From Bacteroidia bacterium (GTDB lineage: Bacteria > Bacteroidota > Bacteroidia > NS11-12g > UBA955): a stretch of DNA of 64,000 bases. Of this stretch, positions 45,966-63,150 are shown piece after piece (positions within the stretch are counted from its first letter, which is position 1; the number at the start of each line of letters is the position of its first letter). The notes below the pieces were generated by a model. That model ran no database searches and had not been told where the DNA came from. It saw nothing but the letters and a program-made list of their open reading frames with translations. The DNA lies in the NCBI GenBank assembly GCA_023228875.1, contig JALOAG010000008.1, positions 19,163-83,162 on the forward strand. The letters are read 5' to 3'. Both the position numbers and the translations under genes were made by a program.

Positions 45966-45979
45966 GCAATGAATAATCC

Positions 45980-46852: not shown

Positions 46853-49800
46853 GTTGTGATTTGCTTACAGTTCTTATCTTTGATGTGGTCATAAACAATG
46901 AACAAAGCCCTATACCGGCACGAACACAAGTTGTGATTTGCTTACAGTTCTTATCTTTGATGTGGTCATAAACAATATTTAAAAACAAAAGAAGACAGAG
47001 ACGTAGTTGTGATTTGCTTACAGTTCTTATCTTTGATGTGGTCATAAACAATAATGGGATACATGGAGAAGTACAGACATAATGAAAGAAGCCCTCAAAA
47101 AGAAGGCTCCTTAGTTCCTTACATTGCGAAGTCTATAAGATTAAGCAGTCCAGAACAACTGCAAATATACAACAATAATTTAAACCTAAGAATAAAAACT
47201 AAAAATTAGAAGATATGGCACAAGGCGGATTAGAATATGTAATAGACCTGATAGACGGTTCTTTTGGCAAGAACATTCAGAAGGCGCAGCAGCAGACAAG
47301 TAAGCTGGACGGCTTGGTTAAGCGCGTGGGGGCTGGCGTTGCAGCTGTGTTTACTGTGCAAAAAGTGTGGGGATTGGTGGAAGAGAGCACCAAAGTGCGG
47401 GCAGAGATGGAAGCTCTGGACACCAAGATTAAAATAGTGAGTGGTTCGACAGAACAATACACCCGCTACACTCAAGCGTTGGGTAGCATGATTGACAACC
47501 TTGCACTGCCTATCAAAGAGACAACAGAGTTGTGATTTGCTTACAGTTCTTATCTTTGATGTGGTCATAAACAATTGCCTGCTGAATAGGCTTCTTGGTA
47601 TGCATTGTTGTGATTTGCTTACAGTTCTTATCTTTGATGTGGTCATAAACAATGACAAAAACCGTTACAATCCGAATCAATTTGTTGTGATTTGCTTACA
47701 GTTCTTATCTTTGATGTGGTCATAAACAATTAGACTGTTGGTCTTTTCGTTCAAATACCTGTTGTGATTTGCTTACAGTTCTTATCTTTGATGTGGTCAT
47801 AAACAATTTCTTACAACGTACTTGTATGGTCTTACCCGTTGTGATTTGCTTACAGTTCTTATCTTTGATGTGGTCATAAACAATCCGAATACAACAGGTG
47901 GAAAATAATGGGTAGTTGTGATTTGCTTACAGTTCTTATCTTTGATGTGGTCATAAACAATGACAAGGGCAACGATAGTGAGCAGCCAATAGTTGTGATT
48001 TGCTTACAGTTCTTATCTTTGATGTGGTCATAAACAATCAACTTTTCTTCCTCAACTCGTTTTCTTCTGTTGTGATTTGCTTACAGTTCTTATCTTTGAT
48101 GTGGTCATAAACAATAAAAGTAAATGTCTTTGACTTTGTTGGGTAGTTGTGATTTGCTTACAGTTCTTATCTTTGATGTGGTCATAAACAATGTTGGCGA
48201 AGGGTAGGTCTGTGTCTGTTTCGTTGTGATTTGCTTACAGTTCTTATCTTTGATGTGGTCATAAACAATCTTATTGTTCTCATTATAAGCATTCTCAGGT
48301 TGTGATTTGCTTACAGTTCTTATCTTTGATGTGGTCATAAACAATTAGATAGTTACTTGATTGCATTATTCCAAAGTTGTGATTTGCTTACAGTTCTTAT
48401 CTTTGATGTGGTCATAAACAATTTTAAGGCTCTGGATGTGCCTAATGTGGAGTGTTGTGATTTGCTTACAGTTCTTATCTTTGATGTGGTCATAAACAAT
48501 AAATTGCCCTGCGTTTGCATCAATCTGCTTGTTGTGATTTGCTTACAGTTCTTATCTTTGATGTGGTCATAAACAATTGCTCAACTATTAGGTGGTAATG
48601 TATGCTAGTTGTGATTTGCTTACAGTTCTTATCTTTGATGTGGTCATAAACAATACAGGTTCTAGTTCCTTAAAGGTGTACAAAGTTGTGATTTGCTTAC
48701 AGTTCTTATCTTTGATGTGGTCATAAACAATTTGCTTACTTTGACATGTAGTAATTGTCCAGTTGTGATTTGCTTACAGTTCTTATCTTTGATGTGGTCA
48801 TAAACAATTCTCAATCTTATTCTAAATTTTACTCTTTGGTTGTGATTTGCTTACAGTTCTTATCTTTGATGTGGTCATAAACAATAAGTCATCTATTTAT
48901 ATACACTTGTATAGCGTTGTGATTTGCTTACAGTTCTTATCTTTGATGTGGTCATAAACAATTTTTCAATTACAAATCATTAATAAGTGCATGTTGTGAT
49001 TTGCTTACAGTTCTTATCTTTGATGTGGTCATAAACAATAGGGCATCCAGCTTCAATCATTCGCTTTACGTTGTGATTTGCTTACAGTTCTTATCTTTGA
49101 TGTGGTCATAAACAATGCCGGCAAATGAGTATAACGGCAAAACAGAGTTGTGATTTGCTTACAGTTCTTATCTTTGATGTGGTCATAAACAATTGCCAAC
49201 ATTCCAACGGCTGCCAACCTTTCGTTGTGATTTGCTTACAGTTCTTATCTTTGATGTGGTCATAAACAATTGTAAGAGTGGCAAGCACTACAGTTGAAGC
49301 GTTGTGATTTGCTTACAGTTCTTATCTTTGATGTGGTCATAAACAATAGATAGGTCGTCGCCCCCTTTTCGTTTTTAGTTGTGATTTGCTTACAGTTCTT
49401 ATCTTTGATGTGGTCATAAACAATGTCTCTCTCGTAGTTAAAATCGTCAGGGAGGTTGTGATTTGCTTACAGTTCTTATCTTTGATGTGGTCATAAACAA
49501 TTTAACTCTCTTTTGAAAAACGCAGTAGGGGGTTGTGATTTGCTTACAGTTCTTATCTTTGATGTGGTCATAAACAATGATTTTGCAGTAGAGAATTTAG
49601 AGAAACAAGTTGTGATTTGCTTACAGTTCTTATCTTTGATGTGGTCATAAACAATTATATTTGAGTAGCTTATTGACGGGTTTAGTTGTGATTTGCTTAC
49701 AGTTCTTATCTTTGATGTGGTCATAAACAATTAGCAGACGGAAATGGGAAAATAGTAATGAGTTGTGATTTGCTTACAGTTCTTATCTTTGATGTGGTCA

Positions 49801-49885
49801 TAAACAATCTTCTAAAGAATTTCCTATTTGTTTTATGTGTTGTGATTTGCTTACAGTTCTTATCTTTGATGTGGTCATAAACAAT
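46853..49885 (+). CRISPR. type II-C CRISPR array of 34 identical 47-bp direct repeats (GTTGTGATTTGCTTACAGTTCTTATCTTTGATGTGGTCATAAACAAT). It has 32 spacers of 29-31 bp plus one 476-bp insert in a spacer position. crRNA orientation is '+', as written.
   Basis: I enumerated every repeat by hand; starts are at 46853, 46930, 47006, 47529, 47607, 47684 ... 49839. Every copy looks identical. Orientation follows from the 19-nt complementarity between the repeat 5' end and the tracrRNA anti-repeat on the same strand. Confidence 0.97.
47053..47528 (+). other. 476-bp foreign insert in a spacer position (a 'mega-spacer'). It holds a phage-like intergenic region plus a 5'-truncated tail-tape-measure-like ORF; ATG is at 47215 and the ORF runs into the next repeat.
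   Basis: Intact repeats flank it precisely on both sides. The ORF 47215-47535 (MAQGGLEYVIDLIDGSFGKNIQKAQQ...) has no stop until the TGA inside repeat 4. Its N-terminus resembles tape-measure N-termini (lambda gpH-like MA..G.L.V.DL...F). Confidence 0.75.
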
Positions 49886-49956
49886 ATACCCTACTTGTAT
49901 CTATTGATAGTTCAAGGATGTCGTGGGATATGACACAAAGAAAAAAATGAAATGAC

Positions 49957-49990
49957 CAAGGAGGATTTATTTAGTAAATCCTCCTTTTTT

Positions 49991-49992
<2 letters not shown>
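49957..49992. terminator. bidirectional terminator between the array end and the cas2 3' end
   Basis: aaGGAGGATTTAtttagTAAATCCTCCttttttttt sits 1 nt beyond the cas2 stop on the minus strand and ~70 nt past the last repeat on the plus strand. Confidence 0.7.
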
Positions 49993-50341
<349 letters not shown>

Positions 50342-50350
50342 TCATACTTT

Positions 50351-51292
50351 TCAGAGGTTCATGGCTGGATAGGGGATTTTGTTTGCTTTGCCCTCAAAAC
50401 ATTTCACTAAACCGGCTGTGGTTCTTTGCAACGCAACCATTAAGGGGCTTTTGTTATTATCAATTTCAACATCTATTGCTGGTATGATTAACAACTCTTT
50501 CTTGATTTCTGTGGTTAATTCACCTTCAGTTTTTGGGAACTTGTGTAAAAGTCCACAAATCAGTTCATCCACAAATGGGCGATAAGGTTCCATAATATCA
50601 TCTGCCAGACAATATGAGTTGTATTGATTGCGATGATGAATCCCCAATGTTGGCAAGAGTCCGCTTCCAACCAATGAACGTGCCACGCAAGCACGTAAGA
50701 TAGAGTAGCCATAGTTCAGCCAAGTATTCGGTTTGTTGCCTTCGCGATCTCGAATGAAATTTGACTCGACTCCGAAAATATGTTGCCAATAGTAGGCTGC
50801 CGCCCTGCCTTCAAAGTTTTCAGGGTCTCCACTACGTACTTGTTTTGCCATGTTATACAGCATTTGTGCATCCCCTTGCCTTTGTTTTTCGAGCAAGATT
50901 CCTTGATTGTTTATTTTTTGTTTGACGGTTTGTTGCCATAGTTGTTTCTTTAGCGGAAGCGAGCTTTCAATCTGTGCCATAAAACGTTTTGCTTGCAGCG
51001 TGTTTCCGTCTAAATTAAGCATCATGCCGCATGGGTGGTGGGTTGAGTTACAGGTAATTAATGCCACATTGTTTTCTAATAGTTCACTCATCAGTGCTTG
51101 TGTCAATGTGATACGACTATGGTCTAAAATTAATAATCCGATGTCTTCAATGGGAATTGAAGCAATCGCTTCTTTTTTAACCTGCTCCGGCATATTCGCG
51201 TCTTGTTCAATCTCAGGCAGTTTTACAACCAATTGTTTAAGATTCAGACTTAAATAAGCCGGATTACCAAAATAGAGCGTGCGTTTAATCAT
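50351..51292 (-). CDS. cas1: CRISPR-associated integrase Cas1 (type II)
   Basis: It is 313 aa and begins MIKRTLYFGNPAYLSL...; operon context supports the call. Confidence 0.9.
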   Translation of the reverse strand: MIKRTLYFGNPAYLSLNLKQLVVKLPEIEQDANMPEQVKKEAIASIPIEDIGLLILDHSRITLTQALMSELLENNVALITCNSTHHPCGMMLNLDGNTLQAKRFMAQIESSLPLKKQLWQQTVKQKINNQGILLEKQRQGDAQMLYNMAKQVRSGDPENFEGRAAAYYWQHIFGVESNFIRDREGNKPNTWLNYGYSILRACVARSLVGSGLLPTLGIHHRNQYNSYCLADDIMEPYRPFVDELICGLLHKFPKTEGELTTEIKKELLIIPAIDVEIDNNKSPLMVALQRTTAGLVKCFEGKANKIPYPAMNL

Positions 51293-51295
51293 AGG

Positions 51296-52018
51296 CTAAA
51301 GAGTTAATTCATTTTCAATTTGCACGTATTCTTCAAACTGCTTTTCTTTTAGCGAGTGCTGTTCTTTATAGTTTTCCATGTTGTTAAACAAATGCTCAGC
51401 TAATTCGGTGTTACGGCTGTAAAAGCCGGTGTTGTTCGTCCATTCCCAATCGTTTATATCAGTAGTGAAATTGTGTTTTATCGGGTTGAGGTGAATATAG
51501 AGAATAATTGCTCGGAGGTAGTCATCGTCTTTGATTTCCTTCCGTTTGAAATTTTTAAGAAAAAGAGAACCGCGTCTTTGATAAACCTTATTAAAGGATT
51601 GGGTGTAACTGCTAAACAGATTAGCAAATTGTTTGCTGAGAAACTTTCCATCAATGGTTGGGATGGGGTTAGACTTTTCAACTGGTTTAAACTTTTCCAA
51701 AGTTCTAAACTTTGGAAAAGTTTGGAGTTGGTTAGGGAAGGTTGAGTTTGACGAAGTTTCCTCTATATTTGGTATATCGTTACTAAGCAGTACCTCTACT
51801 TCCCCTTTTAAAATCTTTTTAATTTCCTCCTTGCTTCTGATTTTGACTAAAAAATGAAAATGATTAGGCATCAGACACCAAGTCAGGGTCTCGGCTATGG
51901 GGCTGATATGCCGATTCCATTTGCTCAAGAAAAACAGATGGTTCTTTCTCTCAACAAATAGATTATCCGTTCCGTTTGCATGGTTGAAAATGTGGTAGTA
52001 TGTCTCAAAATTAAGCAT
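51296..52018 (-). CDS. HUH-superfamily Y1 transposase-family protein (IS200/IS605 TnpA or RayT-like, COG1943/PF01797-like), embedded in the cas operon
   Basis: It has an N-terminal YYHIFNHANG, the HuH motif PNHFHFLVK, and the C-terminal catalytic-Tyr region YQRRG...DDDYLRAIILYIHLNPIKHN, which matches the W-QRR...DExDY...Y-I-H-x-N-P-V-K pattern of RayT/IS200-like proteins. It is 46 nt after the cas9 stop and 3 nt before the cas1 start, on the same strand. Confidence 0.8.
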   Translation of the reverse strand: MLNFETYYHIFNHANGTDNLFVERKNHLFFLSKWNRHISPIAETLTWCLMPNHFHFLVKIRSKEEIKKILKGEVEVLLSNDIPNIEETSSNSTFPNQLQTFPKFRTLEKFKPVEKSNPIPTIDGKFLSKQFANLFSSYTQSFNKVYQRRGSLFLKNFKRKEIKDDDYLRAIILYIHLNPIKHNFTTDINDWEWTNNTGFYSRNTELAEHLFNNMENYKEQHSLKEKQFEEYVQIENELTL

Positions 52019-52064
52019 CTGCTATTATTTTTTAGTCATTAAACTTTATGAAGTCTTGTTTCTT

Positions 52065-55000
52065 TTAATATTCTCCAATACTTACAATATCGCCCAAATG
52101 ATTGATGCGTACTTTGACAATCCCTTCAAAATTGGGTAAACTTTTAATATTTTTGAAAGTGATGTCTTTTAGTTCTTTCCTATCATCTATTGTTGTTTCT
52201 AAATGATGCCTAAAAACATATTCTCTCACAGCTGAATTGCCATAAATAAGTTTTGAAAATTTCTGCACCCTAAACAAATTTTGACTGATTTCCTTTTTAT
52301 TTTTCGGGTCTAACAAATCAATTTCATTGGGGTTAAATCCTGTTTTTTCATTTGGGAAAACAAACATTTCATTTTGTTTCAAGGTAAATAGAAACTGCCA
52401 GCCTAAATGTTGGTTATATGTTTTATCAATTATTGGTAATCCTTGATTAGAGCGAGCAACAGCTTCATAGAACGAAACCACATTTTCTTGTAAATTTCCT
52501 TTCTCATCTCTGTAAACTGCTACGTGGTGATTGTTTCCAGTGCTAACATAATCAACAGGAATTTTCATCCCATTTTCATCCAACATAAAATTACCAAAAT
52601 GGTCTTTTTTGTAGTGCAAAGGTTCAGCATTGCTAACACCGCTAATTGTAACACGTTTTATTGAAATTCCCTTTTCTTTATTGAGCCAAATCGGGTTTTT
52701 GTCTAAATCAGAAAATGCTTTTTTGGGATCTCCTCCGTATTCTTTTAAGCGATTTCTCATTATCGTTTTAATTCCCTCATCAACAATTTTACCTATTAAT
52801 TTATCATCTTTAAAATTTTCCGGGGTAATATCTTTTCTAATTGAAAAATCTTCTGTCAGCCATACTAGTTTTACAATTTCAGGAAGTGCTTTTGATTTTG
52901 CTTCATCCAAGTAAATCGGATTTTTGCTCAAAGCATTTTTTCCTGCAAAAACTTTCATCGGGTCATTGCCATTTTCTGATAATCTTTGTAATAAAAACTT
53001 TCTATAAAGAGGGTTAGCCACTTTATTTATGGTTTCAACGTCAAATTTTGTGCTTACTTTTTCTTCTTTACTTTCGTAATAATGGTATTTACCGTAAACA
53101 GTTTCTTTGTGCAACTGTCCTCTTGGAGTTAACGTTTCTTGAGCTTTGTCTTTGCCCGAAATTTTATTTTTATTTTTCGTAACTACCTTATTTTTTGCTT
53201 TATGCGAAATCAATACATTTTCCAAATGCTCTTTGGCTACCTGACGGAAGTTTGGTATTGGTTCTTTAAAAACACGCTTTTTGTTTCCGTCATTATCCAC
53301 TTTTATTTCGGTTTCCAAATTCTCAATGGCAACTATATTGCTGTGCAATTTATGATTTTCGTTTTTCCGTGCATTCAGGTAATTCAAATACTGAATATGA
53401 TTATGTTTGGTAAATGCAACCGTCAAAGCGTCCATAGCGTGATGACGGTGGTCGTTCCGTTTTGTCCAGTCTTTAATAACTTCTACTTGCTTTCCAAATT
53501 TCCGTTCTTGCATTTCAGTCAACCCTAAACTTCTGTATTTCGGCAGATTAAGCTCTTTCATTACATTAACCAAGTCCCAATCTTCACGAAGTCTGTCTGT
53601 AATACTTCCCGAAGTGGAAACTACTGAACGGGTAATTTTAAACAGCATTTCTTTTGCCTTTTTGGCAATGTATTGCGTTTCTCTTAAATCACGCTCTATA
53701 AATCCGTCCCCGATTTCAGACTCTTTTTTGAATAATTTTTGATATTTAGCTTTTGAAATCTTCTTTTCCATGTACAAAATTTCGACTACTGATTCATACT
53801 TAGAAAAATCACCTTCGCCTTTTGTGCTCATATAATCAAATGCTGTCTTGTTTCCCTTATCCAAATTTGCTTGTCTCGGTACTAAAACTTTATTTGAAAA
53901 ACTGTCATCAAACAAACGGGATTGAGGAATGATATGGTCTATATCATATTCTTTTCCAAATAACTTATGATAATCAATTTTGGTATTTGTATATAAATCT
54001 TTATAAGCATTAAAGGCTAATTCCTCATATAGTTTATATCTTATAATATCATTTTTTGTTGGATTCTGAACACTTGGAAAATCTCTCTTTATGATCGCTC
54101 TTATTTTATCATTCTCCAATTTTGCAGCATTGATATTCGTAGTCATTTCTGCTCTTTCCTGTGCATTTTTCTTTAATTCACGAGCCAATTCTATACGGAT
54201 TTCGTCAAATCGGAAATCGGGATTTCCTTTTCTATTTTTCTCAATCAATGTGTTTACCACATTGACCATTTGATTAAGAATTTTCTCCACCACAGGTTGA
54301 CGTAAACTGTTCTTTTTCAACAACTCCAATTTATCCTCCAATGGTCTATTGTCTATTTCCTCTTTGGTCAAAGAATGCTTGGAATGACGATAACCTGCCA
54401 ATTCGCAAGCCGTACTATAATTGTTTTCCTTAATAAACGGATAAACTTTTCGCATCGCTTTGGAAGAAAGATTTCCGTAATCATCAGATAAGGAAATATT
54501 AGCCAAAATCTGACTATGTTCTTTTTTGAAGCCGAATTTCTTTTCTAACAGTTCATACAATTTTTCGTTTCCACTTTGGGAATTATCGCCTTCATACGAA
54601 TACAATAAATGCCACAATTGATAAGATAGCTGTTCTTCAAACGCTGTTCCGTCCAGCTCTGCATCAAATTCCAAAATCTTCGTATCAATTTCCAATGTCT
54701 GAAAAATATCCCTGACCATCTTCTTGATTTCAATGGCAGGAACATTCAAATCGTCCAGTTCAACCTCATCTTTGTTGGATTTTACTTTCAGTAAATCTTT
54801 TACGTCATACCCCTCTATATCCAAAATTTTCAGATAGGCTTCATAAAGTGCTTTATTGGTTCGATTGCCCTCCAATTCAGAATAATTGATTTCCCAATCA
54901 GTAGGTTTGTACCCTAATAGTTCAATGATTTTATTGGCTTTTAAATTGCCTTTAAAGTTCAATTCATCAAACAAATGTTGCTTTGTTTCTAAATCGAGCG

Positions 55001-56342
55001 TAAATATTTCCTTTTCTTCTTCAAAAAGACTATCCTGATTGTCTTGTTTTGCTGTACGTTTCTTACTTCCTTTTTTTCGGATTAAAATATTGTTCAAGTT
55101 TTGCCAAATCTTAAACTCCTGAAATAAAGGCGAAGATTTTGGTGCAACACGCAAGCCAATTGTTTTTTTCTTTCCGTTTAATTCAACTTCCTTACTCTCA
55201 AATTCGCAAAAGCTGATTAAGCCTTTTTGAGATTTCAGTTTTCTTTGGTAAAAGATGATGATGTCCCGAATTTCTGTTTTGAGTTCTTCTGTTAATTCTG
55301 AATGATAGTTAGATTGAACTTCCCAAATTTTCTCAAACTCGTCCAAATAATCCTGACGATAAAACACTTGATTTTTCAATCGTGTATGACGGTTTTCCTT
55401 GATTTGCTGATACAAATATTGACCGACCGTCTGCTTGCTAAAATACAACTCCTTACTTCGATCTGAAATTGCACCAAGATAACCGCTCGAATTATTAAGG
55501 TTGTTGTTTATCTCTGTCAGAACAAAAGCGACCTCATCTTTTTCCAATTGTTTGGAAATTGCTTCACTTCGCCATTTGTAAGCCTGTATCTTTTTTTCTT
55601 CTCTTGTTCCTTTGTTTTCGGCTGTATTGAATTGATATTTTGTCCAAAACAAAGTGGAAGTTGCTCGTTGTCCTTTTCCTTTTAATTCTTTATAAAATTC
55701 ATCGGTAAGGATTTCAGGATAGAATTGTCTTTGAAAATCCCACACTTTGTCAAATTCAGCCTGCAAATCCGACCTGTAAAAATCAGGTATTGACTTTTTG
55801 CCTTCTTTCAAAAGCTGATAAACCAACTGGCCGGGCGTTATCTGTTCATCATACAACCGTTTCGCAACAGCCATTCCATCAATCGCCTGACCTTCATCTT
55901 CGTTCTTAGCTTTTCTACTGCTTTTATAACCTCGTTTTTTATTGATAGCTAAAAAAACACGTGCCAATTCATCTTTATCAATTTTCTCATAAGCGGCTTT
56001 TGATCGTAACATCCAAGTTGAAAAAGTGGTTTGTTTGCCATCTTCATTTAAAATAGAATTATTGTTAATGATATTAGCATTAACCAGTGCTTCAATTAAA
56101 TTTTTACGTCTGATTTTAAAACGGTCTAAATTTCTTCTAGCTCCACGTTTTAAGGTTCTTTCTTTATTAATCGAAAAAGATTTGCCTTTTTCAAAATTGG
56201 TTTGTTCATCTACAGTTAGTGAAATAATTCTAACACCTATTTGATTAATTTCAGAGTTTTTTAGTTTTTCATCTTCCAAGATGTGTGCAAAACCTATTGA
56301 GGATACTCCTAAATCCAGTCCAAGTATATTTTTTTTTGCCAT
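52065..56342 (-). CDS. cas9: Cas9 endonuclease, long Bacteroidota-type, type II-C (1425 aa)
   Basis: It has RuvC-I (ILGLDLGVSSIGFA), HNH (YDIDHIIPQSRLFDDSFSNKVLV) and RuvC-III (HHAMDALTVAF). No csn2 or cas4 is in the locus. Confidence 0.95.
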   Translation of the reverse strand: MAKKNILGLDLGVSSIGFAHILEDEKLKNSEINQIGVRIISLTVDEQTNFEKGKSFSINKERTLKRGARRNLDRFKIRRKNLIEALVNANIINNNSILNEDGKQTTFSTWMLRSKAAYEKIDKDELARVFLAINKKRGYKSSRKAKNEDEGQAIDGMAVAKRLYDEQITPGQLVYQLLKEGKKSIPDFYRSDLQAEFDKVWDFQRQFYPEILTDEFYKELKGKGQRATSTLFWTKYQFNTAENKGTREEKKIQAYKWRSEAISKQLEKDEVAFVLTEINNNLNNSSGYLGAISDRSKELYFSKQTVGQYLYQQIKENRHTRLKNQVFYRQDYLDEFEKIWEVQSNYHSELTEELKTEIRDIIIFYQRKLKSQKGLISFCEFESKEVELNGKKKTIGLRVAPKSSPLFQEFKIWQNLNNILIRKKGSKKRTAKQDNQDSLFEEEKEIFTLDLETKQHLFDELNFKGNLKANKIIELLGYKPTDWEINYSELEGNRTNKALYEAYLKILDIEGYDVKDLLKVKSNKDEVELDDLNVPAIEIKKMVRDIFQTLEIDTKILEFDAELDGTAFEEQLSYQLWHLLYSYEGDNSQSGNEKLYELLEKKFGFKKEHSQILANISLSDDYGNLSSKAMRKVYPFIKENNYSTACELAGYRHSKHSLTKEEIDNRPLEDKLELLKKNSLRQPVVEKILNQMVNVVNTLIEKNRKGNPDFRFDEIRIELARELKKNAQERAEMTTNINAAKLENDKIRAIIKRDFPSVQNPTKNDIIRYKLYEELAFNAYKDLYTNTKIDYHKLFGKEYDIDHIIPQSRLFDDSFSNKVLVPRQANLDKGNKTAFDYMSTKGEGDFSKYESVVEILYMEKKISKAKYQKLFKKESEIGDGFIERDLRETQYIAKKAKEMLFKITRSVVSTSGSITDRLREDWDLVNVMKELNLPKYRSLGLTEMQERKFGKQVEVIKDWTKRNDHRHHAMDALTVAFTKHNHIQYLNYLNARKNENHKLHSNIVAIENLETEIKVDNDGNKKRVFKEPIPNFRQVAKEHLENVLISHKAKNKVVTKNKNKISGKDKAQETLTPRGQLHKETVYGKYHYYESKEEKVSTKFDVETINKVANPLYRKFLLQRLSENGNDPMKVFAGKNALSKNPIYLDEAKSKALPEIVKLVWLTEDFSIRKDITPENFKDDKLIGKIVDEGIKTIMRNRLKEYGGDPKKAFSDLDKNPIWLNKEKGISIKRVTISGVSNAEPLHYKKDHFGNFMLDENGMKIPVDYVSTGNNHHVAVYRDEKGNLQENVVSFYEAVARSNQGLPIIDKTYNQHLGWQFLFTLKQNEMFVFPNEKTGFNPNEIDLLDPKNKKEISQNLFRVQKFSKLIYGNSAVREYVFRHHLETTIDDRKELKDITFKNIKSLPNFEGIVKVRINHLGDIVSIGEY

Positions 56343-56388
56343 TGTGAAAAATTAATAATTAATGGCATGCAAGTAATAACTTTATTCT

Positions 56389-56396
56389 TATATTTG
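56389..56396 (+). promoter_or_regulatory. Bacteroidota sigma-A -7 box (TAtaTTTG) positioned to start tracrRNA transcription at about 56401
   Basis: TATATTTG matches TAnnTTTG and sits 4-8 nt upstream of the first anti-repeat nucleotide. No convincing -33 TTTG was found. Confidence 0.45.
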
Positions 56397-56400
56397 CAAC

Positions 56401-56472
56401 ACTGTAAGCAAATCACAATAAGGATTATTTCCGTTGTGAAAACATTTAAGGCGGGGTAACTCGCCTTTTTTT
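56401..56472 (+). ncRNA. tracrRNA. The anti-repeat ACUGUAAGCAAAUCACAAU is followed by a stem-loop region and an intrinsic terminator (GGCGGGguaaCUCGCC-U7).
   Basis: Positions 56401-56419 are the reverse complement of repeat nt 1-18(19), with a G-U at the end. The terminator is at 56449-56472. It lies in the 197-nt gap upstream of cas9 and is transcribed divergently. Confidence 0.85.
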
Positions 56473-56539
56473 ATCCAAATCTATAACGCATTTTTTCAAC
56501 TTTACCTACTACCTTTGCAGCCTTCAAACAAAAATCCAA

Positions 56540-57865
56540 ATGAACAGGTCTGTCGCTTTTTATACTTTGGGTTGTAAGCTCAATTACTCCGAATCTTCTT
56601 CGCTCAACCAACAGCTTGAGAAAATTGGATATACAACTAAGGACTTTACTGAAGGACCTGATGTTTATGTGATTAATACTTGTTCAGTTACAGACCATGC
56701 GGATAAAAAGTGTAAGAAGATAGTGAGAGAGGCGTTGAAGTATAATCCCAACGCTTTTGTTGCGGTGATTGGTTGCTATGCGCAGTTGAAGCCCGGTGAA
56801 ATTGCTACAATTGAAGGGGTTGATTTGGTGTTGGGTGCTGCTGAAAAGTTCAATCTGACACAACATTTGGATAATATCACCAAGAAAGAAAAAGCTGAAA
56901 TCGCCCATTCTAATATCAAAAAAGTAGTGGACTTTGTGCCCGGATTTTCCGGAGATGACAGAACAAGGTCTTTTTTAAAAGTTCAAGACGGCTGTGATTA
57001 TTTCTGTTCCTTCTGCACAATCCCATTGGCAAGAGGCAGTAGCCGCAGTCTCAATGTGAGTGATACGTTGAAAGTAGCTCGCACACTTGCAGCTACTGAC
57101 GTGAAAGAAGTCGTGCTGACCGGATGTAATCTGGGAGACTTTGGTGTCAATCACGATGAGAGTTTTCTGGATTTAATTAGAGAATTGGATAAAGTAGATG
57201 GGATTATGCGTTATCGTATTTCCTCTATTGAGCCAAATTTGTTGAAAGATGAAATCATTGATTTTGTTGCCAATTCAAATAAATTTCTACCCCATTTTCA
57301 TATTCCGCTTCAAAGTGGATCGAACACTATTCTCAAAGCAATGCGCAGACGTTATTTGAGAGAGTTATATGAAGAAAAAATCAACAAGATTAAAGTAGTT
57401 ATGCCTGATTGTGCCATTGGAGTTGATGTTATTGTTGGTTTTCCGGGCGAAACCCACGAGGAGTTTTTAAAGACATATAATTTTTTAAATGGCTTAGATG
57501 TTAGCTACTTTCACGTATTTCCGTATTCTGAACGACCCAATACCACTGCTTGGAAAATGTCTGATATTGTGCCTGTAAAGGTAAGAGGGGAGAGGACGCA
57601 GCAGTTGATGAATCTTTCTGAAAAGAAAAGACAATTTTTCTATCGCTCATGTTTAGGCAAAACCTATCCTGTATTATTTGAAAAAGAGGAAAGAGAAGGC
57701 AAGATGTATGGGTTTACTCCCAACTACATTCGTGTTGAGGCAGACTATGACCCTATGTTAATCAACGAGATTGTGGATGTGAAATTGGAAAGTATCAATA
57801 CCGAAACAATGCATGTTGTGGGCACTGTTTCGGAGTATTCAGCCACAGCACTTAAATTCAGTTGA
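56540..57865 (+). CDS. mtaB: radical-SAM methylthiotransferase, MtaB-like (tRNA t6A37 methylthiotransferase), MiaB/RimO family
   Basis: It has an N-terminal MTTase Cys triad (YTLGCKLN...C...C), a radical SAM CxxxCxxC (CDYFCSFC) and a TRAM-like C-terminus. Confidence 0.75.
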   Translation: MNRSVAFYTLGCKLNYSESSSLNQQLEKIGYTTKDFTEGPDVYVINTCSVTDHADKKCKKIVREALKYNPNAFVAVIGCYAQLKPGEIATIEGVDLVLGAAEKFNLTQHLDNITKKEKAEIAHSNIKKVVDFVPGFSGDDRTRSFLKVQDGCDYFCSFCTIPLARGSSRSLNVSDTLKVARTLAATDVKEVVLTGCNLGDFGVNHDESFLDLIRELDKVDGIMRYRISSIEPNLLKDEIIDFVANSNKFLPHFHIPLQSGSNTILKAMRRRYLRELYEEKINKIKVVMPDCAIGVDVIVGFPGETHEEFLKTYNFLNGLDVSYFHVFPYSERPNTTAWKMSDIVPVKVRGERTQQLMNLSEKKRQFFYRSCLGKTYPVLFEKEEREGKMYGFTPNYIRVEADYDPMLINEIVDVKLESINTETMHVVGTVSEYSATALKFS

Positions 57866-57880
57866 TTCTAAAAATACAGA

Positions 57881-59077
57881 ATGTATCCTACCTTATATGA
57901 CATGTTTGCAGATTTGTTTGGAGTTCATCTCCCATTTCTGCGTGTAGTTCAATCCTTTGGTTTTTTTGTTGCCATCTCTTTTTTGCTCGCTCATTATACG
58001 ATGTCTCTTGAGTTGAAGCGCAAAGAAAAAGCAGGGGTGTTGAGTGGAAAAAAGATTAAAGTAATTATTGGAAAACCCTATGCTGTGTCCGAGTATGTAT
58101 TGAGCGGTTTTCTCGGTTTTTTGTTGGGATTTAAACTGTTACCAATCTTCTTTTTCAGCAGCGATATGGCAGATCCGCGTTCTTTTCTTTTGTCAGCAGA
58201 AGGAAATTGGTTGTTGGGAGGATTGAGTGCTGTTGCTGTTGTTTTATATAAAAAATACGAAGACAAGAAGCAGCGTAAAAATCCTCCTGTGGAGCAAGAG
58301 GTTTTGGAACGTCCTTATCAAATAATGGGGAATATGACGGTTATTGCGGCTGTTGCAGGCTTGATTGGAGCTAAACTGTTTCATAATCTCGAAAACTGGG
58401 ATCATTTTGTTGCAGACCCTATTGGCTCTTTGCTATCATTTAGCGGGCTTACATTTTTTGGAGGATTAATATGTGGTGGTGCTGCTGTTCTTTGGTATGC
58501 AAACAAAAAAGGAGTAAAACCCTTACACATGCTTGACGTTGGAGGACCTGCTATGATGTTGGCTTATGCATCCGGTAGAATCGGGTGTCATATTTCAGGT
58601 GATGGCGATTGGGGGATTGTGAATACGGCTCCAATGCCGGCTTGGTTGTCTTGGCTTCCTGAATGGGTCTGGGCTTATAATTATCCTAACAATGTGAATG
58701 GTGAATGTAATCCATACACGATTGGAACTCCTGAGTATTTGGCAAATCTGAATTGTGATTTTTCTGAAACTCCTTATTTGGTTGCTAATGTTTTTCCAAC
58801 TCCTTTATACGAAATCATCGTTTGTGGTATTTTCTTTTTTGTATTGTGGTCTTTGCGTAAACGGATTCATACTCCGGGAGTTTTATTTGGAATTTATATG
58901 ATCATGGCAGGTTTTGAACGCTTTTGGATTGAAAAAATCAGGGTAAACACTATTATACACTTTTTAGGAATGAAAGTTACCCAAGCCGAAATCATCTCTG
59001 TTATACTAATGTTGGGAGGCGTTGCATTGATTGTGTATGCAAAACGAAAAAATAAGATTCAAACAGCCCTTTTATAA
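57881..59077 (+). CDS. lgt: prolipoprotein diacylglyceryl transferase (long Bacteroidota form)
   Basis: It is a polytopic membrane protein with the Lgt-like G...R.G....GD.D.G signature region (ASGRIGCHISGDGDWG). Confidence 0.55.
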   Translation: MYPTLYDMFADLFGVHLPFLRVVQSFGFFVAISFLLAHYTMSLELKRKEKAGVLSGKKIKVIIGKPYAVSEYVLSGFLGFLLGFKLLPIFFFSSDMADPRSFLLSAEGNWLLGGLSAVAVVLYKKYEDKKQRKNPPVEQEVLERPYQIMGNMTVIAAVAGLIGAKLFHNLENWDHFVADPIGSLLSFSGLTFFGGLICGGAAVLWYANKKGVKPLHMLDVGGPAMMLAYASGRIGCHISGDGDWGIVNTAPMPAWLSWLPEWVWAYNYPNNVNGECNPYTIGTPEYLANLNCDFSETPYLVANVFPTPLYEIIVCGIFFFVLWSLRKRIHTPGVLFGIYMIMAGFERFWIEKIRVNTIIHFLGMKVTQAEIISVILMLGGVALIVYAKRKNKIQTALL

Positions 59078-59192
59078 CTGTTGTTGTATTTGTTAGTTCA
59101 GTTCGTCTGTCTGACAATATCGATTTTTATAGAGAACAATGTGTGGCAATTGCATATTTACAGTTAATTCGTACATTCAAAAAAACTTATAT

Positions 59193-59645
59193 ATGAAACA
59201 TAAAGTATTACTAAGTCTGTTGATTATTCTTTCTTTCATCTCCTTCAATGTGTATGCAGTTGTGAACCAAACCAAGGTGAAGAATGAGAATAAGTACAAA
59301 AATTTGAAAGTGCTTCCCCAAGATATTTCTGAAGAAGAACTCAAAGCAACCATGAAATTTTTTAATACTTCTTTGGGTGTTAAATGTAGCTTTTGCCATG
59401 TCGCCAATCCTGATAATCCTAAAGATTTAGACTTCGCAAGTGATGACAATCATAAAAAGCTGGCTGCACGTTATATGATGAAAATGACGCAGGAAATCAA
59501 TGATACACACTTCAAGCCATTTCTCGGTCAAGATGGCAACACCATAGTTCCTGATCATATTAACTGTATGACTTGTCATAATGGACAGCAAAAACCAATT
59601 ACTACTCCTGCGGTTCCTATACCTGATGTGAACAATGGTAAGTAA
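59193..59645 (+). CDS. di-haem c-type cytochrome. The start is at MKHKVLL.
   Basis: It has a signal peptide and two CxxCH motifs (CSFCH and CMTCH). Confidence 0.7.
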   Translation: MKHKVLLSLLIILSFISFNVYAVVNQTKVKNENKYKNLKVLPQDISEEELKATMKFFNTSLGVKCSFCHVANPDNPKDLDFASDDNHKKLAARYMMKMTQEINDTHFKPFLGQDGNTIVPDHINCMTCHNGQQKPITTPAVPIPDVNNGK

Positions 59646-59730
59646 TGTTATTTTTAAACGCGAATACACGCTTCTAACTTTATTTTCAGACTCTTACCAA
59701 AGATGATTTAACTGAGATTATCTTTGCTGC

Positions 59731-60096
59731 GTGAAAAATGCTTTGAGATCCATTGCGGTGTCGCTTTTGATTGTTGTCTATGCCTTTGCAGTAGGGCATA
59801 GCAGTTTACATAGCGATTTGCATCAAAGCAAAACTCACACAGATGAGTCAAGTACTTTTAAAAATATTGTCGATAGCTGGCTTAGTTCTGCAAGTGGCAA
59901 TGAAAGCTCATACAGTAATAGCCTTAGATTCTATTTTTCAGGGGAGAAGAATCTGAATACGGATTTTGTGATTTTATTAAAAAAAGCAGCCCGTTACTTT
60001 CAGACCTATTTTATTCAATATACATTCTTTGAAAAGAATCTCATTGAGAGACTGTTTCCACAGGATATCATTTTCCCTTTCCATTATTTTTGGTAA
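59731..60096 (+). CDS. hypothetical small secreted protein
   Basis: Support is the ORF plus a signal-like N-terminus only. Confidence 0.3.
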   Translation: MKNALRSIAVSLLIVVYAFAVGHSSLHSDLHQSKTHTDESSTFKNIVDSWLSSASGNESSYSNSLRFYFSGEKNLNTDFVILLKKAARYFQTYFIQYTFFEKNLIERLFPQDIIFPFHYFW

Positions 60097-60193
60097 AAGC
60101 AGAGGTTTCATGCAGTTTTAACGGATACCTTTCTCTCCGTCAATGTTGACGGGATCAAAAAATTATTAACCAAAAAAAATAAAAATTAATAAA

Positions 60194-60685
60194 ATGTTTT
60201 CAGGAACAACAATCATAGGGTTGATTATAGTGTTGCTATGTATCATTCCCATAGTGCTGATGTTTGTCAGCAGCAAAAAGAAAAAAGCAAGAGCGCTAAA
60301 CGCTTTAAAGGAGCTGGCAACTGAGTCAAATAAGAAGGTTGCACAATTTGACCAATGGAAAGAAAATGCAATCGGAACTGACGAAGCCCATACCATGATT
60401 TTTGCTGTACGCAAAATGAAAGATAGTGTGTTGAAATATGCTATTAATCTGAGTGGTGTCAGGTCTTGCAAAGTCATCAATAGGAGCAGGACAGTGAAAT
60501 TTGAAGGAGGGAATACCACATTAATAGAACAATTGTCTTTGCAATTTGAATATAAAGACCCATCAAAAGGAGAAATGGTACTTGATTTTTATCACAATGG
60601 CTATGATACAGTAGCGATTGCAGATGAACTTCTACTCATACAGAAATGGGAAATACTCATTCAGGATGCCTTAAACAAAAACTAA
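60194..60685 (+). CDS. hypothetical membrane-anchored protein
   Basis: It has an N-terminal TM helix and is followed by a strong terminator. Confidence 0.4.
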   Translation: MFSGTTIIGLIIVLLCIIPIVLMFVSSKKKKARALNALKELATESNKKVAQFDQWKENAIGTDEAHTMIFAVRKMKDSVLKYAINLSGVRSCKVINRSRTVKFEGGNTTLIEQLSLQFEYKDPSKGEMVLDFYHNGYDTVAIADELLLIQKWEILIQDALNKN

Positions 60686-60704
60686 AGGTTTTGGACTTGT
60701 TAAA

Positions 60705-60735
60705 AAGCCTCGCTCAAAAGCGAGGTTTTTTTTTG
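60705..60735. terminator. bidirectional rho-independent terminator
   Basis: The sequence is aaaaaGCCTCGCTcaaaaGCGAGGttttttttt. Confidence 0.75.
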
Positions 60736-60740
60736 TCTTT

Positions 60741-61811
60741 TTATGATTTGAGTAAGACATCTACTATTTCTTGAGCAGCATTTCCGTTGCCATAAAGCCC
60801 TTCTTTTGCTTCAAAAGGCTTGTTGTAGATTTGATTGAAATAGGATATGATTTTGTCTTCATTGGCACCTGCCACAAAATTTACATTGTGTTGCACTAAT
60901 TCTATCCATTCGGTTTCATCTCGCATGGTGATACAGTATTTCTTTTTAAGATAAGCCTCCTTTTGCAGTCCACCGCTGTCGGTGAGGACGAAACTACAAT
61001 TTTCTAATAAGCCCAACATGGTGAGATAACCAACAGGGTCAATGATTTTAAAATTTGGAACGATATTTAAAGTTTCAAAAAATTGACGAGTGCGCGGATG
61101 TAGGGGTAGTATAATCTCAACTTCCTTAGAAATTGTGTTCAATGCATTAACAATTGCGCGAAGGCGATCGGGATTGTCAGTGTTTTCTGCGCGATGTATG
61201 GTACAGAGGGTATATTTCTTTTGTTCAGTTATGGGAGACAAGGACTCAGCATCAGGGGCATAGTTAGAAAAGAATTTAAGTGCATCATACATAATGTCTC
61301 CGGTGCGGATTACTTGACAGGGGTAATCTTTAAACCCTTCTTTACTAAGATTTTCAATAGCGCTATCGGTAGGGCAGAATAGGAAGTCCGAAATGCGGTC
61401 AGTCAATATTCGGTTTACTTCTTCCGGCATTTTCATGTTGAAACTTCGCAAACCTGCCTCCACATGAGCCACCTTCACATGCAGTTTTTTTGCAGCTAAT
61501 GCCCCTGCAAGAGTGGAGTTTGTATCTCCATACACAAGCACAAAGTCGGGTTTTTCTTTCAGTATAATTTTTTCAATTTCTTCCAACATGCGACCTGTCA
61601 TAGCACCATGTCCTAAACTGTGAATATCAAGTTTGTATGAGGGAGCAGGGATTTTCATTTCAGAAAAGAAAATGTCACTCATGTTGGAATCAAAGTGTTG
61701 TCCCGTATGAACCAATATTTCGGTAATACCATTGGTCTCAGCTATTTTTCTGCTTAGAGGAGCAGCCTTTATAAACTGCGGACGTGCTCCGATGATGGTC
61801 AAAATCTTCAT
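60741..61811 (-). CDS. wecB: UDP-N-acetylglucosamine 2-epimerase (non-hydrolysing)
   Basis: MKILTIIGARPQFIKAAPL... is the canonical WecB/MnaA N-terminus. Confidence 0.9.
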   Translation of the reverse strand: MKILTIIGARPQFIKAAPLSRKIAETNGITEILVHTGQHFDSNMSDIFFSEMKIPAPSYKLDIHSLGHGAMTGRMLEEIEKIILKEKPDFVLVYGDTNSTLAGALAAKKLHVKVAHVEAGLRSFNMKMPEEVNRILTDRISDFLFCPTDSAIENLSKEGFKDYPCQVIRTGDIMYDALKFFSNYAPDAESLSPITEQKKYTLCTIHRAENTDNPDRLRAIVNALNTISKEVEIILPLHPRTRQFFETLNIVPNFKIIDPVGYLTMLGLLENCSFVLTDSGGLQKEAYLKKKYCITMRDETEWIELVQHNVNFVAGANEDKIISYFNQIYNKPFEAKEGLYGNGNAAQEIVDVLLKS

Positions 61812-62049
61812 GAAGGCTGCGAAGTTAATTCAAATACTTCTTTTGAACTTGTCTTTTCATCTAAGTAATATAGGTGCGCTTGCTACGTTCCATTCTCTCA
61901 CAAGGTTTGATAACAATACTTTTCCGGTTACTGCTTGGGGTTCAGGTATAAGTAGTGCGATGGATAGCGGTTTCTTGTATGGAGTGCGCTATCAATTTTA
62001 AACCTTTAGTTTTGACAATTCAAAACTAAACAATCATTACTCAACATTC

Positions 62050-63150
62050 TTGCCTACATTTGCGCCACTCAATAAAATAATGACTCAAATTAAATTTACT
62101 TCAAAACCTGACTTCTTTCTCATACTCAGAAACAGAATTGACGGTTACTTTAAGGATAACAATCTGAATAAAACCGGAGATTTCCGACTGTATTCAAAAT
62201 CTATCATATTGTTTAGTGCATTGGTTGCACTCTATGTTATATTGGTGTTTTTTACACCCTCAACCTGGTTGGCACTCTTGCTTTGTGTGTTGATGGGGGT
62301 TACTTTAGCCGCCATTGGTTTTAACGTAATGCACGATGGAGCACATGGGTGTTATTCTTCAAATCCAACGATTAATGCAATCATGGGTTTTTCTTTAAAT
62401 GTAATGGGGGGGAATGTGTATATCTGGAAACAAAAACATAACGTGAATCACCACTCTTTTACGAATATCGAAGGAATGGATGATGATATTGACATCAAAC
62501 CTTTTATTCGCGTTCATACTGCGCAAAAGAAGAATTTTCTCCACCCTTTACAACATTTCTATTGGGTTTTGCTTTATGGTACAACTTATATCTTTTGGGT
62601 GTTTTATAATGATTTTAAAAAGTATTTCAGTGGTAAAATCTCTGAATATACCCCCATTCCTAAGATGAGTATCAAAGAACAGCTGAATTTCTGGTCCTCA
62701 AAAATATTCTATGTTTTCTTGTTCATCGTACTTCCGGGAATAATGGTTGGATGGATTCCAATGTTAGTTGGCTATTTAGTGATTTGTTATGTTACAGGCT
62801 TGTTGATTGCTGTTGTCTTTCAATTGGCGCATGTAGTAGAGAAGGCTGACTTTGTTGACCCTGTGTCTTCAGGTTTTAGTGTGGAGGATGAATGGGCAAT
62901 ACATCAATTAAAGACTACTGCAAATTTTGGAACCGGCAGTAAATTTCTGAATTGGTTGTTGGGTGGGTTAAATTTTCAGGTTGAACATCATTTGTTTCCA
63001 AGAATCAGTCATGTGCATTATGCTAAGATGAATGAGATTGTGAAAGAAACTTGTAAAGAGTATAATGTTGAATACAAAGAGTATAGAACTATGTATCAAG
63101 CACTCAAATCTCATGTCATGCACTTAAAAGCAGTAGGACAGGCAGCTTAA
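62050..63150 (+). CDS. membrane fatty-acid desaturase (acyl-lipid/acyl-CoA desaturase family). The start is possibly at MTQIKF near 62080.
   Basis: It has three His boxes (HDGAHG, HNVNHH, QVEHHLFP) and four TM segments. Confidence 0.8.
   Translation: MPTFAPLNKIMTQIKFTSKPDFFLILRNRIDGYFKDNNLNKTGDFRLYSKSIILFSALVALYVILVFFTPSTWLALLLCVLMGVTLAAIGFNVMHDGAHGCYSSNPTINAIMGFSLNVMGGNVYIWKQKHNVNHHSFTNIEGMDDDIDIKPFIRVHTAQKKNFLHPLQHFYWVLLYGTTYIFWVFYNDFKKYFSGKISEYTPIPKMSIKEQLNFWSSKIFYVFLFIVLPGIMVGWIPMLVGYLVICYVTGLLIAVVFQLAHVVEKADFVDPVSSGFSVEDEWAIHQLKTTANFGTGSKFLNWLLGGLNFQVEHHLFPRISHVHYAKMNEIVKETCKEYNVEYKEYRTMYQALKSHVMHLKAVGQAA

What the first reader, a model, noticed from the sequence alone, without database searches (positions are those of the whole stretch)
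56380..56472. tracrRNA with a 19-nt anti-repeat, its own -7 promoter box and an intrinsic terminator
Seen in sequence: 56401-56419 (ACTGTAAGCAAATCACAAT) is the reverse complement of repeat nt 1-18, plus a G-U at nt 19. It is followed by a structured ~30 nt and then GGCGGGgtaaCTCGCC-T7. A TATATTTG box at 56389-56396 fits the Bacteroidota TAnnTTTG -7 consensus and places the transcription start at about 56401.

Complementarity does not extend upstream of 56401. The repeat:anti-repeat duplex is therefore short, about 18-19 bp.
Basis: seen in the sequence. Interest (0 to 1): 0.5.

Follow-up and report, generated by a model that had tools for sequence, protein, structure and literature searches.

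The report
Ordinary tracrRNA gene beside Bacteroidota cas9

Summary
Confirmed, and ordinary. Window 56401-56472 (+) is a 72-nt tracrRNA gene. It lies 58 bp upstream of a 1425-aa type II-C cas9 (52065-56342, -) and points away from it.

- **Anti-repeat:** its first 19 nt pair with nt 1-19 of the 47-nt CRISPR repeat (18 Watson-Crick pairs plus a terminal G-U). This is the only such match outside the array.
- **Scaffold:** a nexus hairpin, a small GAAA hairpin and a GC hairpin followed by T7.
- **Promoter:** the TATATTTG box at 56389-56396 fits the Bacteroidota sigma-A box, which sits at -12 to -5. That puts +1 at 56401, the first paired base.
- **Family:** a covariance model built from 14 orthologues, without the window, hits exactly 56401-56472 (91.9 bits). 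It also finds a divergent tracrRNA upstream of cas9 in 77 of 80 related loci.
- **Known relatives:** the core matches the tracrRNA tested in vitro with Flavobacterium psychrophilum Fp2Cas9, apart from one compensated substitution and one extra loop base. A 16-nt anti-repeat at this position was reported for Riemerella in 2016.

Short duplexes (15-24 bp) and a promoter box next to the anti-repeat are typical of the family. The modest new point is that the predicted start coincides with the edge of the duplex. Expression and processing remain untested.

The parts
56389..56396 (+). Predicted sigma-A promoter box TATATTTG (Bacteroidota TAnnTTTG consensus, positions -12 to -5). It predicts +1 at 56401.
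   Evidence: Sequence. Box position relative to the transcription start from PMC9723704. An exact box at the equivalent place in 51 of 76 orthologous loci; 33 of 46 against a shuffle mean of 1.6.
56401..56472 (+). The whole predicted tracrRNA (72 nt), from the predicted start to the end of the terminator T-run.
   Evidence: Covariance model R1, built without the window, matches 1-71/71 at exactly these coordinates: 91.9 bits, E 9e-18.
56401..56419 (+). Anti-repeat. It pairs with repeat nt 1-19: 18 Watson-Crick pairs plus G1-U56419.
   Evidence: The window-specific T at 56405 (A in the orthologues) is matched by A instead of T at repeat nt 15, a compensatory change between the two RNAs.
56422..56432 (+). 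Nexus-like hairpin GGAUUAUUUCC: a 3-bp stem with a loop one U longer than the family consensus GGAUUAUUCC.
   Evidence: Co-fold and model alignment. The stem never varies in the family, so there is no covariation. L036 carries an insertion here whose arms can pair, judged by eye and not folded, which would lengthen the hairpin.
56435..56444 (+). Mini-hairpin UGU-GAAA-ACA.
   Evidence: Co-fold. Most family variation in this segment falls in the loop (GAAA, GUAA, GAGA, GAAG), but L018 has lost a stem base. Weak support.
56448..56472 (+). Intrinsic terminator: AAGGCGGGGUAACUCGCCUU (8 pairs, GUAA loop) followed by U7.
   Evidence: Terminator scan. Three stem pairs show changes on both sides among 16 orthologues.
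46853..49885 (+). Cognate CRISPR array: 34 identical 47-nt repeats (GTTGTGATTTGCTTACAGTTCTTATCTTTGATGTGGTCATAAACAAT), read as crRNA on the + strand. Spacers are 29-31 nt, plus one 476-bp insert.
52065..56342 (-). cas9 (1425 aa, type II-C, large Bacteroidota clade), divergent from the tracrRNA gene.
   Evidence: Pfam HNH_4 and RuvC_III; TIGR01865 at 465 bits; 59-88% identical homologues across Bacteroidota.
49991..51292 (-). cas1 (50351-51292) and cas2 (49991-50335).
   Evidence: Pfam Cas_Cas1 and CRISPR_Cas2.

Best explanation
Window 56401-56472 (+) encodes the tracrRNA of the neighbouring type II-C CRISPR-Cas9 system.

**Inferred mechanism.**
1. RNA polymerase with the Bacteroidota primary sigma factor uses the TATATTTG box at 56389-56396 and starts at about A56401. 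The 19-nt anti-repeat is therefore the very 5' end of the primary transcript.
2. Transcription stops at the GC hairpin and U7 (56448-56472), giving an RNA of about 72 nt.
3. The anti-repeat pairs with nt 1-19 of the repeat that follows each spacer in + strand crRNA transcripts.
4. The invariant 3' part (AAGGAUUAUUUCC GUUGUGAAAACAUU plus the terminator hairpin) is the scaffold that Cas9 binds. The crRNA:tracrRNA:Cas9 complex then cuts DNA matching the spacer.

**What is shown.** The complementarity, its uniqueness in the window, the fold, and family-wide conservation of sequence, position and orientation. An almost identical RNA also works with Fp2Cas9 in vitro.

**What is inferred.** The transcription start, termination, Cas9 binding in this organism, and whether RNase III or another nuclease trims the duplex.
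For: - The anti-repeat is unique in the window outside the array.
- Co-folding gives a 19-bp duplex plus three hairpins, about -44 kcal/mol.
- A covariance model from 14 orthologues, without the window, hits exactly 56401-56472 at 91.9 bits. It finds the same RNA upstream of and divergent from cas9 in 77 of 80 loci.
- The window's repeat and anti-repeat carry matching changes relative to the family: CUUACAG with CUGUAAG, against CUUUCA with UGAAAG.
- The terminator stem shows compensatory changes at 3 pairs.
- An exact TAnnTTTG box is present in 51 of 76 orthologues, far above the shuffle expectation. In 12 of 19 loci with an exact box and a full repeat, the predicted start falls within 2 nt of the edge of complementarity. 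The window's offset is 0.
- The Fp2Cas9 tracrRNA has the same core, and its essential region, nt 25-64, corresponds to window 56406-56446.
- A 16-nt anti-repeat upstream of cas9 was reported in Riemerella. A predicted tracrRNA upstream of cas9 supported cleavage by CoCas9.
Against: - There are no transcript data for this organism.
- No Rfam family matches the region.
- The nexus and mini-hairpin stems never vary in the family, so covariation cannot support them.
- About a third of orthologues lack an exact promoter box.
- In 7 of 19 loci the predicted start and the duplex edge differ by 3-9 nt.
- The Fp2Cas9 study used a 99-nt tracrRNA with a longer 5' end, so longer forms may exist in some relatives.
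Confidence: 0.9

Rival explanations
1. The tracrRNA is made as a longer precursor from a promoter further upstream, or by read-through, and is then trimmed. On this view 56401 is not the primary 5' end and the TATATTTG box is a chance match.
For: The Fp2Cas9 work used a 99-nt tracrRNA that starts 24 nt before the core. About a third of orthologues lack an exact box. In 7 of 19 loci the box-derived start and the duplex edge differ by 3 nt or more.
Against: Only 58 bp separate 56401 from the divergent cas9 start codon, and there is no complementarity upstream of 56401. The box is strongly enriched at this position across the family, and its spacing tracks the duplex edge. The authors of the Fp2Cas9 locus study state that tracrRNA transcription was not determined.
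Confidence: 0.12
2. The segment is a leftover inverted fragment of a CRISPR repeat beside a terminator that belongs to a neighbouring gene. On this view it is not a functional RNA gene.
For: The complementarity is short (19 nt). Extra anti-repeat copies without a Cas9 scaffold do occur upstream of cas9 in four related loci: L006, L012, L054 and L070.
Against: The roughly 30 nt after the anti-repeat are almost invariant across loci whose Cas9 proteins are only 59-80% identical, and they match a tracrRNA shown to work in vitro. No + strand gene ends upstream that would need this terminator, because the neighbour is cas9 on the other strand.
Confidence: 0.02
3. The main role of the region is as part of the cas9 mRNA leader. 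On this view a minus-strand promoter (TAGATTTG, 56483 to 56476) starts cas9 transcription at about 56471, so the leader is antisense to the tracrRNA gene. This could coexist with the tracrRNA.
For: An exact TAnnTTTG box lies on the minus strand just past the terminator. I saw no exact box in the 58 bp between the cas9 start codon and 56401 when reading the sequence by eye.
Against: This is a single chance-level match and was not tested across orthologues. Such a transcript would start inside the terminator hairpin. It would not explain conservation of the + strand scaffold and the T-run.
Confidence: 0.1

Closest known systems
Fp2Cas9 tracrRNA, Flavobacterium psychrophilum CN46 (PMC12609912; locus described in PMC10309648)
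   Same: The core is the same: AAGCAAWUCACAAUAAGGAUUAUUCCGUUGUGAAAACAUUUAA followed by a GC hairpin and a U-run. The gene lies upstream of cas9. The repeat begins GUUGUGAAUUGCUUUC. In vitro, tracrRNA nt 25-64 are essential and 16 nt of repeat are enough, which fits a natural 19-bp duplex.
   Different: The window has A instead of U at one anti-repeat position, compensated in its repeat, and one extra U in the nexus loop. Its terminator hairpin is a different variant. The published RNA was given a 24-nt longer 5' end, and its promoter was not determined. In CN46 an IS982 element separates the tracrRNA gene from cas9.
Riemerella anatipestifer CRISPR1 anti-repeat (PMC5006608)
   Same: Type II-C locus with 47-nt repeats and a short anti-repeat (16 nt, TGAAAGCAATTCACAA) upstream of cas9. 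This is the same motif as the family consensus found here.
   Different: That study reported only the anti-repeat and defined no scaffold, promoter or terminator. It found no repeat-internal promoter, whereas the window's repeat carries a TAnnTTTG box.
CoCas9 tracrRNA, Capnocytophaga ochracea (PMC10521337)
   Same: A large type II-C Cas9 with 46-bp repeats. The tracrRNA was predicted upstream of cas9, with its 5' part complementary to the repeat, and it supported cleavage in vitro. Capnocytophaga Cas9s are about 67-73% identical to the window's protein.
   Different: That locus lacks cas1 and cas2.
Neisseria meningitidis type II-C tracrRNA and crRNA system (Zhang et al. 2013, as cited in PMC5006608 and PMC10309648)
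   Same: A minimal cas9-cas1-cas2 locus, crRNAs driven by promoters inside the repeats, and RNase III processing that is dispensable.
   Different: Repeats are 36 nt and the repeat promoter is a different one, not the Bacteroidota TAnnTTTG box. From memory, unchecked here: an extended -10 box, a longer anti-repeat and a smaller (about 1080 aa) Cas9.

Membership tests
tracrRNA (trans-activating RNA of type II CRISPR-Cas) | An anti-repeat complementary to the repeat of the cognate array | tested here: met
   19 contiguous pairs with repeat nt 1-19; unique in the window outside the array.
tracrRNA (trans-activating RNA of type II CRISPR-Cas) | Encoded within a cas9 locus | tested here: met
   58 bp upstream of cas9 and divergent from it, with cas1, cas2 and the array downstream.
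tracrRNA (trans-activating RNA of type II CRISPR-Cas) | A structured 3' scaffold (nexus and hairpins) ending in an intrinsic terminator | tested here: met
   Fold and co-fold, terminator scan and compensatory changes in the terminator stem. The nexus is invariant, so its pairing rests on energy alone.
tracrRNA (trans-activating RNA of type II CRISPR-Cas) | Expressed as a separate small RNA | not testable with these tools
   Only a predicted promoter box (56389-56396) and terminator. No RNA data.
tracrRNA (trans-activating RNA of type II CRISPR-Cas) | Needed for Cas9 loading and interference | not testable with these tools
   Shown in vitro for near-identical RNAs with Fp2Cas9 and for CoCas9, not for this locus.
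tracrRNA family of the large Bacteroidota type II-C Cas9 clade (Fp2Cas9 / CoCas9 / Riemerella type) | Conserved core AAGCAAWUCACAAUAAGGAUUAUUCCGUUGUGAAAACAUU | tested here: met
   The covariance model built without the window scores 91.9 bits over 1-71/71. There is one compensated substitution and one extra loop base relative to the Fp2Cas9 RNA.
tracrRNA family of the large Bacteroidota type II-C Cas9 clade (Fp2Cas9 / CoCas9 / Riemerella type) | Position upstream of cas9 on the opposite strand | tested here: met
   The same arrangement in 77 of 80 related loci and in the window.
tracrRNA family of the large Bacteroidota type II-C Cas9 clade (Fp2Cas9 / CoCas9 / Riemerella type) | Repeats of 46-47 nt beginning GUUGUGAWUUGCUU, with a terminal G-U pair to the tracrRNA | tested here: met
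   Window repeat. Nearly all recovered full-length family repeats are 46-47 nt (range 36-50) and start this way, and the tracrRNA ends its anti-repeat in CACAAU.
Any tracrRNA or other RNA family in Rfam 15 | A match to the family covariance model | tested here: not met
   No Rfam family matches 56380-56472 even at E up to 10. This tracrRNA type is therefore not represented in Rfam. This is not evidence against a tracrRNA.

The most novel reading that the evidence does not exclude
In this whole Cas9 clade, both guide RNAs may be defined by where transcription starts and not by RNase III cutting. The tracrRNA would begin exactly at the first paired base, and each crRNA would begin at a TAnnTTTG box inside the preceding repeat (repeat nt 23-30, predicted start at nt 35). 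The 15-24-bp duplex would then sit flush with the tracrRNA 5' end. This could explain why these repeats are 46-47 nt long when only about 16-19 nt are used for pairing. The likeness between the tracrRNA promoter (TTCTTATATTTG) and repeat nt 19-30 (TTCTTATCTTTG) could even hint that the tracrRNA promoter came from a repeat.
Probability: 0.3. Interest if true: 0.4.

Novelty: new member of a known kind. Interest (0 to 1): 0.2.

Why it matters
It gives this metagenome-derived Cas9 a usable guide RNA design: repeat nt 1-16 to 1-19, a loop, then 56401-56472. It also shows that one conserved tracrRNA scaffold serves a very large Bacteroidota Cas9 clade, found in 77 of 80 loci examined.

The conserved promoter box that abuts the anti-repeat offers a concrete, testable answer to a question the Flavobacterium authors left open, namely how the tracrRNA is transcribed (PMC10309648). 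Beyond that it adds no new biology.

Tried and rejected
- **Rfam.** A scan of 45000-64000 at E up to 10 found no tracrRNA hit, only weak unrelated matches.
- **A longer or second anti-repeat in the window.** None found.
- **Longer imperfect pairing upstream of 56401.** Extending the tracrRNA to 56360 in the co-fold added only scattered pairs.
- **The 240-aa ORF between cas9 and cas1 as PcrIIC1.** I suspected this after CbCas9 came up as the closest solved Cas9. I rejected it: PcrIIC1 is a PIN-domain protein. The ORF matches REP-associated tyrosine transposases and has no PADLOC hit.
- **CoCas9 tracrRNA sequence.** The supplement is not held, so no direct alignment was possible.
- **First script to extract repeats from the related loci.** It failed because the pattern was too loose. 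It was redone with a k-mer approach.
- **The 476-bp array insert against the phage genome collection.** No match.
- **The tracrRNA promoter resembling repeat nt 19-30.** This holds only in the window. Other loci merely share the box consensus, judged by eye.

Full report
**What is in the window.** A CRISPR array lies at 46853-49885. It has 34 identical 47-nt repeats (GTTGTGATTTGCTTACAGTTCTTATCTTTGATGTGGTCATAAACAAT) and 29-31-nt spacers. Next to it, on the minus strand, come four genes:
- cas2 (49991-50335)
- cas1 (50351-51292)
- a 240-aa extra ORF (51296-52018)
- a 1425-aa cas9 (52065-56342) with HNH and RuvC-III domains and a 465-bit match to TIGR01865

The finding lies in the 197-bp gap between the cas9 start codon (56342) and a + strand radical-SAM gene (56540-57865).

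**Checking the observation.** Every sequence statement holds.
- ACTGTAAGCAAATCACAAT is at 56401-56419.
- At up to 3 mismatches the 19-mer occurs 35 times: once here, and 34 times as the reverse strand of the array repeats. Chance expectation is 0.06.
- With the array masked, the best match of the whole repeat anywhere in the window is 56401-56418 (18/18, E 3e-5). No other antisense match is longer than 11 nt.
- Pairing is 18 Watson-Crick pairs (repeat nt 2-19) plus a G-U between repeat G1 and U56419. The next two positions upstream of 56401 are mismatches.
- The TATATTTG box is at 56389-56396.
- The hairpin AAGGCGGGGTAACTCGCCTT (56448-56467) with T7 (56466-56472) is scored as terminator-like.
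- Co-folding the repeat with 56401-56472 gives a 19-bp duplex, a GGA/UCC hairpin (56422-56432), a UGU-GAAA-ACA hairpin (56435-56444) and the terminator, at about -44 kcal/mol.

**Comparative evidence.** The Cas9 has thousands of homologues in Bacteroidota. The 120 best listed are 70-88% identical and include Capnocytophaga, Chryseobacterium, Flavobacterium and Algoriphagus. I fetched 80 genomic loci whose Cas9 is 59-80% identical.
- **Conserved sequence.** A pattern search found the same arrangement in 46 loci, upstream of cas9 on the opposite strand: a TAnnTTTG-like box, a few bases, (c)uGAAAGCAAWUCACAAU, then AAGGAUUAUUCCGUUGUGAAAACAUU, a variable GC hairpin and a U-run.
- **Independent model.** A covariance model built from 14 of these, with the window left out, matches the window at exactly 56401-56472 over its full length (91.9 bits, E 9e-18). 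All other hits in the window score 18 bits or less. Most are antisense copies of the array repeats and a handful are scattered chance-level matches.
- **Conserved position.** The same model finds a minus-strand hit upstream of cas9 in 77 of the 80 loci. The three without a hit (L058, L066 and L071) have little or no sequence upstream of cas9.
- **Compensatory change between the two RNAs.** The window differs from the family at one anti-repeat position (CUGUAAGC against CUGAAAGC). Its repeat carries the matching change (GCUUACAG against GCUUUCAG).
- **Terminator.** The stem shows changes on both sides at 3 pairs among 16 orthologues.
- **Nexus and mini-hairpin.** These stems never vary, so covariation says nothing about them. 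L036 has an insertion in the nexus whose arms can pair, judged by eye and not folded. Most variation in the mini-hairpin falls in its loop, although L018 has lost a stem base.

**Promoter and 5' end.**
- **Predicted start.** In Flavobacterium psychrophilum transcription-start maps the sigma-A box TAnnTTTG occupies -12 to -5 (PMC9723704). Applied here, +1 is 56401, the first base of the anti-repeat.
- **Box in orthologues.** An exact box is present at the equivalent place in 51 of 76 orthologues, and many of the rest are one mismatch away. In the first set, 33 of 46 had an exact box, against a mean of 1.6 and a maximum of 6 in shuffled sequence.
- **Match to the duplex edge.** Among 19 loci with an exact box and a full repeat, the predicted start lies within 2 nt of the start of contiguous complementarity in 12. 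The window's offset is 0. Two of the larger offsets (L029 and L080) are duplexes interrupted by mismatches.
- **Duplex length.** Contiguous duplex length in the family is 15-24 bp, most often 17-20.

The window's short duplex at the very 5' end is therefore the family norm.

**What is already known.**
- Chylinski et al. 2013 noted the Bacteroidetes Cas9 subcluster with repeats of up to 48 nt. They found no anti-repeat in Bacteroides fragilis.
- Zhu et al. 2016 reported a 16-nt anti-repeat, TGAAAGCAATTCACAA, upstream of cas9 in Riemerella anatipestifer, which has 47-nt repeats. They asked whether 16 nt is enough.
- CoCas9 from Capnocytophaga ochracea cuts DNA with a tracrRNA predicted upstream of cas9.
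- The Fp2Cas9 tracrRNA of F. psychrophilum is UUGUAGUUUUGUACUACAAUUUUGAAGCAAUUCACAAUAAGGAUUAUUCCGUUGUGAAAACAUUUAAAGCGGCCUCUAAAGGGUCGCUUUUUU... Its essential region is nt 25-64, and 16 nt of repeat are enough in the crRNA. The essential region corresponds to window 56406-56446, with one substitution and one extra U.
- The same group stated that the transcription and maturation of the tracrRNA were not determined.

The window's RNA is therefore a new member of a known, biochemically validated tracrRNA family. The only modest addition is the conserved promoter box that places the start at the duplex edge.

**Mechanism.** Sigma-A-dependent transcription starts at about 56401 and stops at the hairpin and U7. 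The 5' 19 nt pair with the repeat part of + strand crRNAs, and Cas9 binds the duplex and scaffold.

The repeat itself carries TATCTTTG at nt 23-30, which predicts crRNA starts at repeat nt 35. An exact box occurs in 18 of 48 related repeats. Repeat-encoded promoters have been proposed for Flavobacterium. Whether RNase III trims a 19-bp duplex here is unknown.

In the free RNA, the lowest-energy fold pairs UCACAAU of the anti-repeat with the invariant GUUGUGA at 56433-56439. This could be a closed form that crRNA pairing displaces. It is inference only.

**Rivals.**
- A longer precursor made from an upstream start cannot be excluded without RNA data. It is disfavoured by the box statistics and by the 58-bp distance to cas9.
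- A decayed repeat fragment is excluded by the conserved scaffold.
- A minus-strand box, TAGATTTG (56483 to 56476), might drive cas9 with a leader antisense to the tracrRNA gene. It is a single unverified match.

**Verdict.** This is a new member of a known kind and of low interest.

Noticed in passing
window 51296-52018 (-): A 240-aa ORF sits between cas9 and cas1. It resembles REP-associated tyrosine transposases (NF047646, E 5e-15, below its cut-off; Pfam Y1_Tnp, E 9e-4; weak hit to PDB 4er8). tblastn finds a relative within about 1 kb downstream of cas9 in 14 of 80 related loci: about 26-54% identity in 13, and only a 48-residue fragment in L021. L037 also has a copy upstream of cas9. It is not the PIN-domain PcrIIC1 and has no PADLOC match. 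It may be an unrecognised accessory gene of type II-C loci.
   Followed up: partly
window 47053-47528 (+): The array holds a 476-bp 'spacer' between two intact repeats. It carries the first 104 codons of an ORF that weakly resembles phage tail tape measure proteins (phrog_9959, E 1.8e-5). There is no match in the phage genome collection.
   Followed up: partly
window array repeats, nt 23-30 of each (for example 46875-46882): Every repeat contains TATCTTTG, a perfect TAnnTTTG box. It predicts that each crRNA starts at repeat nt 35, which is 13 nt before the spacer. An exact box is present in 18 of 48 related repeats, at nt 23-32.
   Followed up: partly
L006 near 9883, L012 near 2635, L054 near 1428, L070 near 9480 (all minus strand): These four related loci carry a second anti-repeat copy upstream of cas9. 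It ends in CACAAC (a perfect match to the repeat, with no G-U) and is followed by an AT-rich hairpin in place of the Cas9 scaffold. In three of them it lies beside what looks by eye like a tRNA gene (no tRNA scan was run). The window has no such element.
   Followed up: no
L003, L026, L030, L037, L038, L043, L057, L065: just 3' of the tracrRNA terminator: A conserved motif, AAATGTTTCATGA or a close variant, follows the terminator U-run in taxonomically scattered loci. It is nearly complementary to the tracrRNA's own GUGAAAACAUUU. It is absent from the window.
   Followed up: no
window 56385-56396 (+) against repeat nt 19-30: The tracrRNA promoter region TTCTTATATTTG matches repeat nt 19-30, TTCTTATCTTTG, at 11 of 12 positions on the same strand. 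Other loci share only the box consensus, so this may be chance.
   Followed up: partly
window 56476-56483 (minus strand reads TAGATTTG): An exact TAnnTTTG box lies on the minus strand just past the tracrRNA terminator. If used, cas9 mRNA would start near 56471 with a leader antisense to the whole tracrRNA gene.
   Followed up: no
window 45838-45964 (+): A sub-threshold Rfam match to the Bacteroides small RNAs BTnc231 and GibS (34 bits, E 9e-4, gathering score 80), with a strong terminator hairpin. It lies about 900 bp before the array.
   Followed up: no
window 56413-56439 (+): In the free tracrRNA the lowest-energy fold pairs UCACAAU (the 3' end of the anti-repeat) with the invariant GUUGUGA at 56433-56439, which copies repeat nt 1-7. 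All 7 pairs are invariant in the 16 orthologues examined, so there is no covariation either way.
   Followed up: partly
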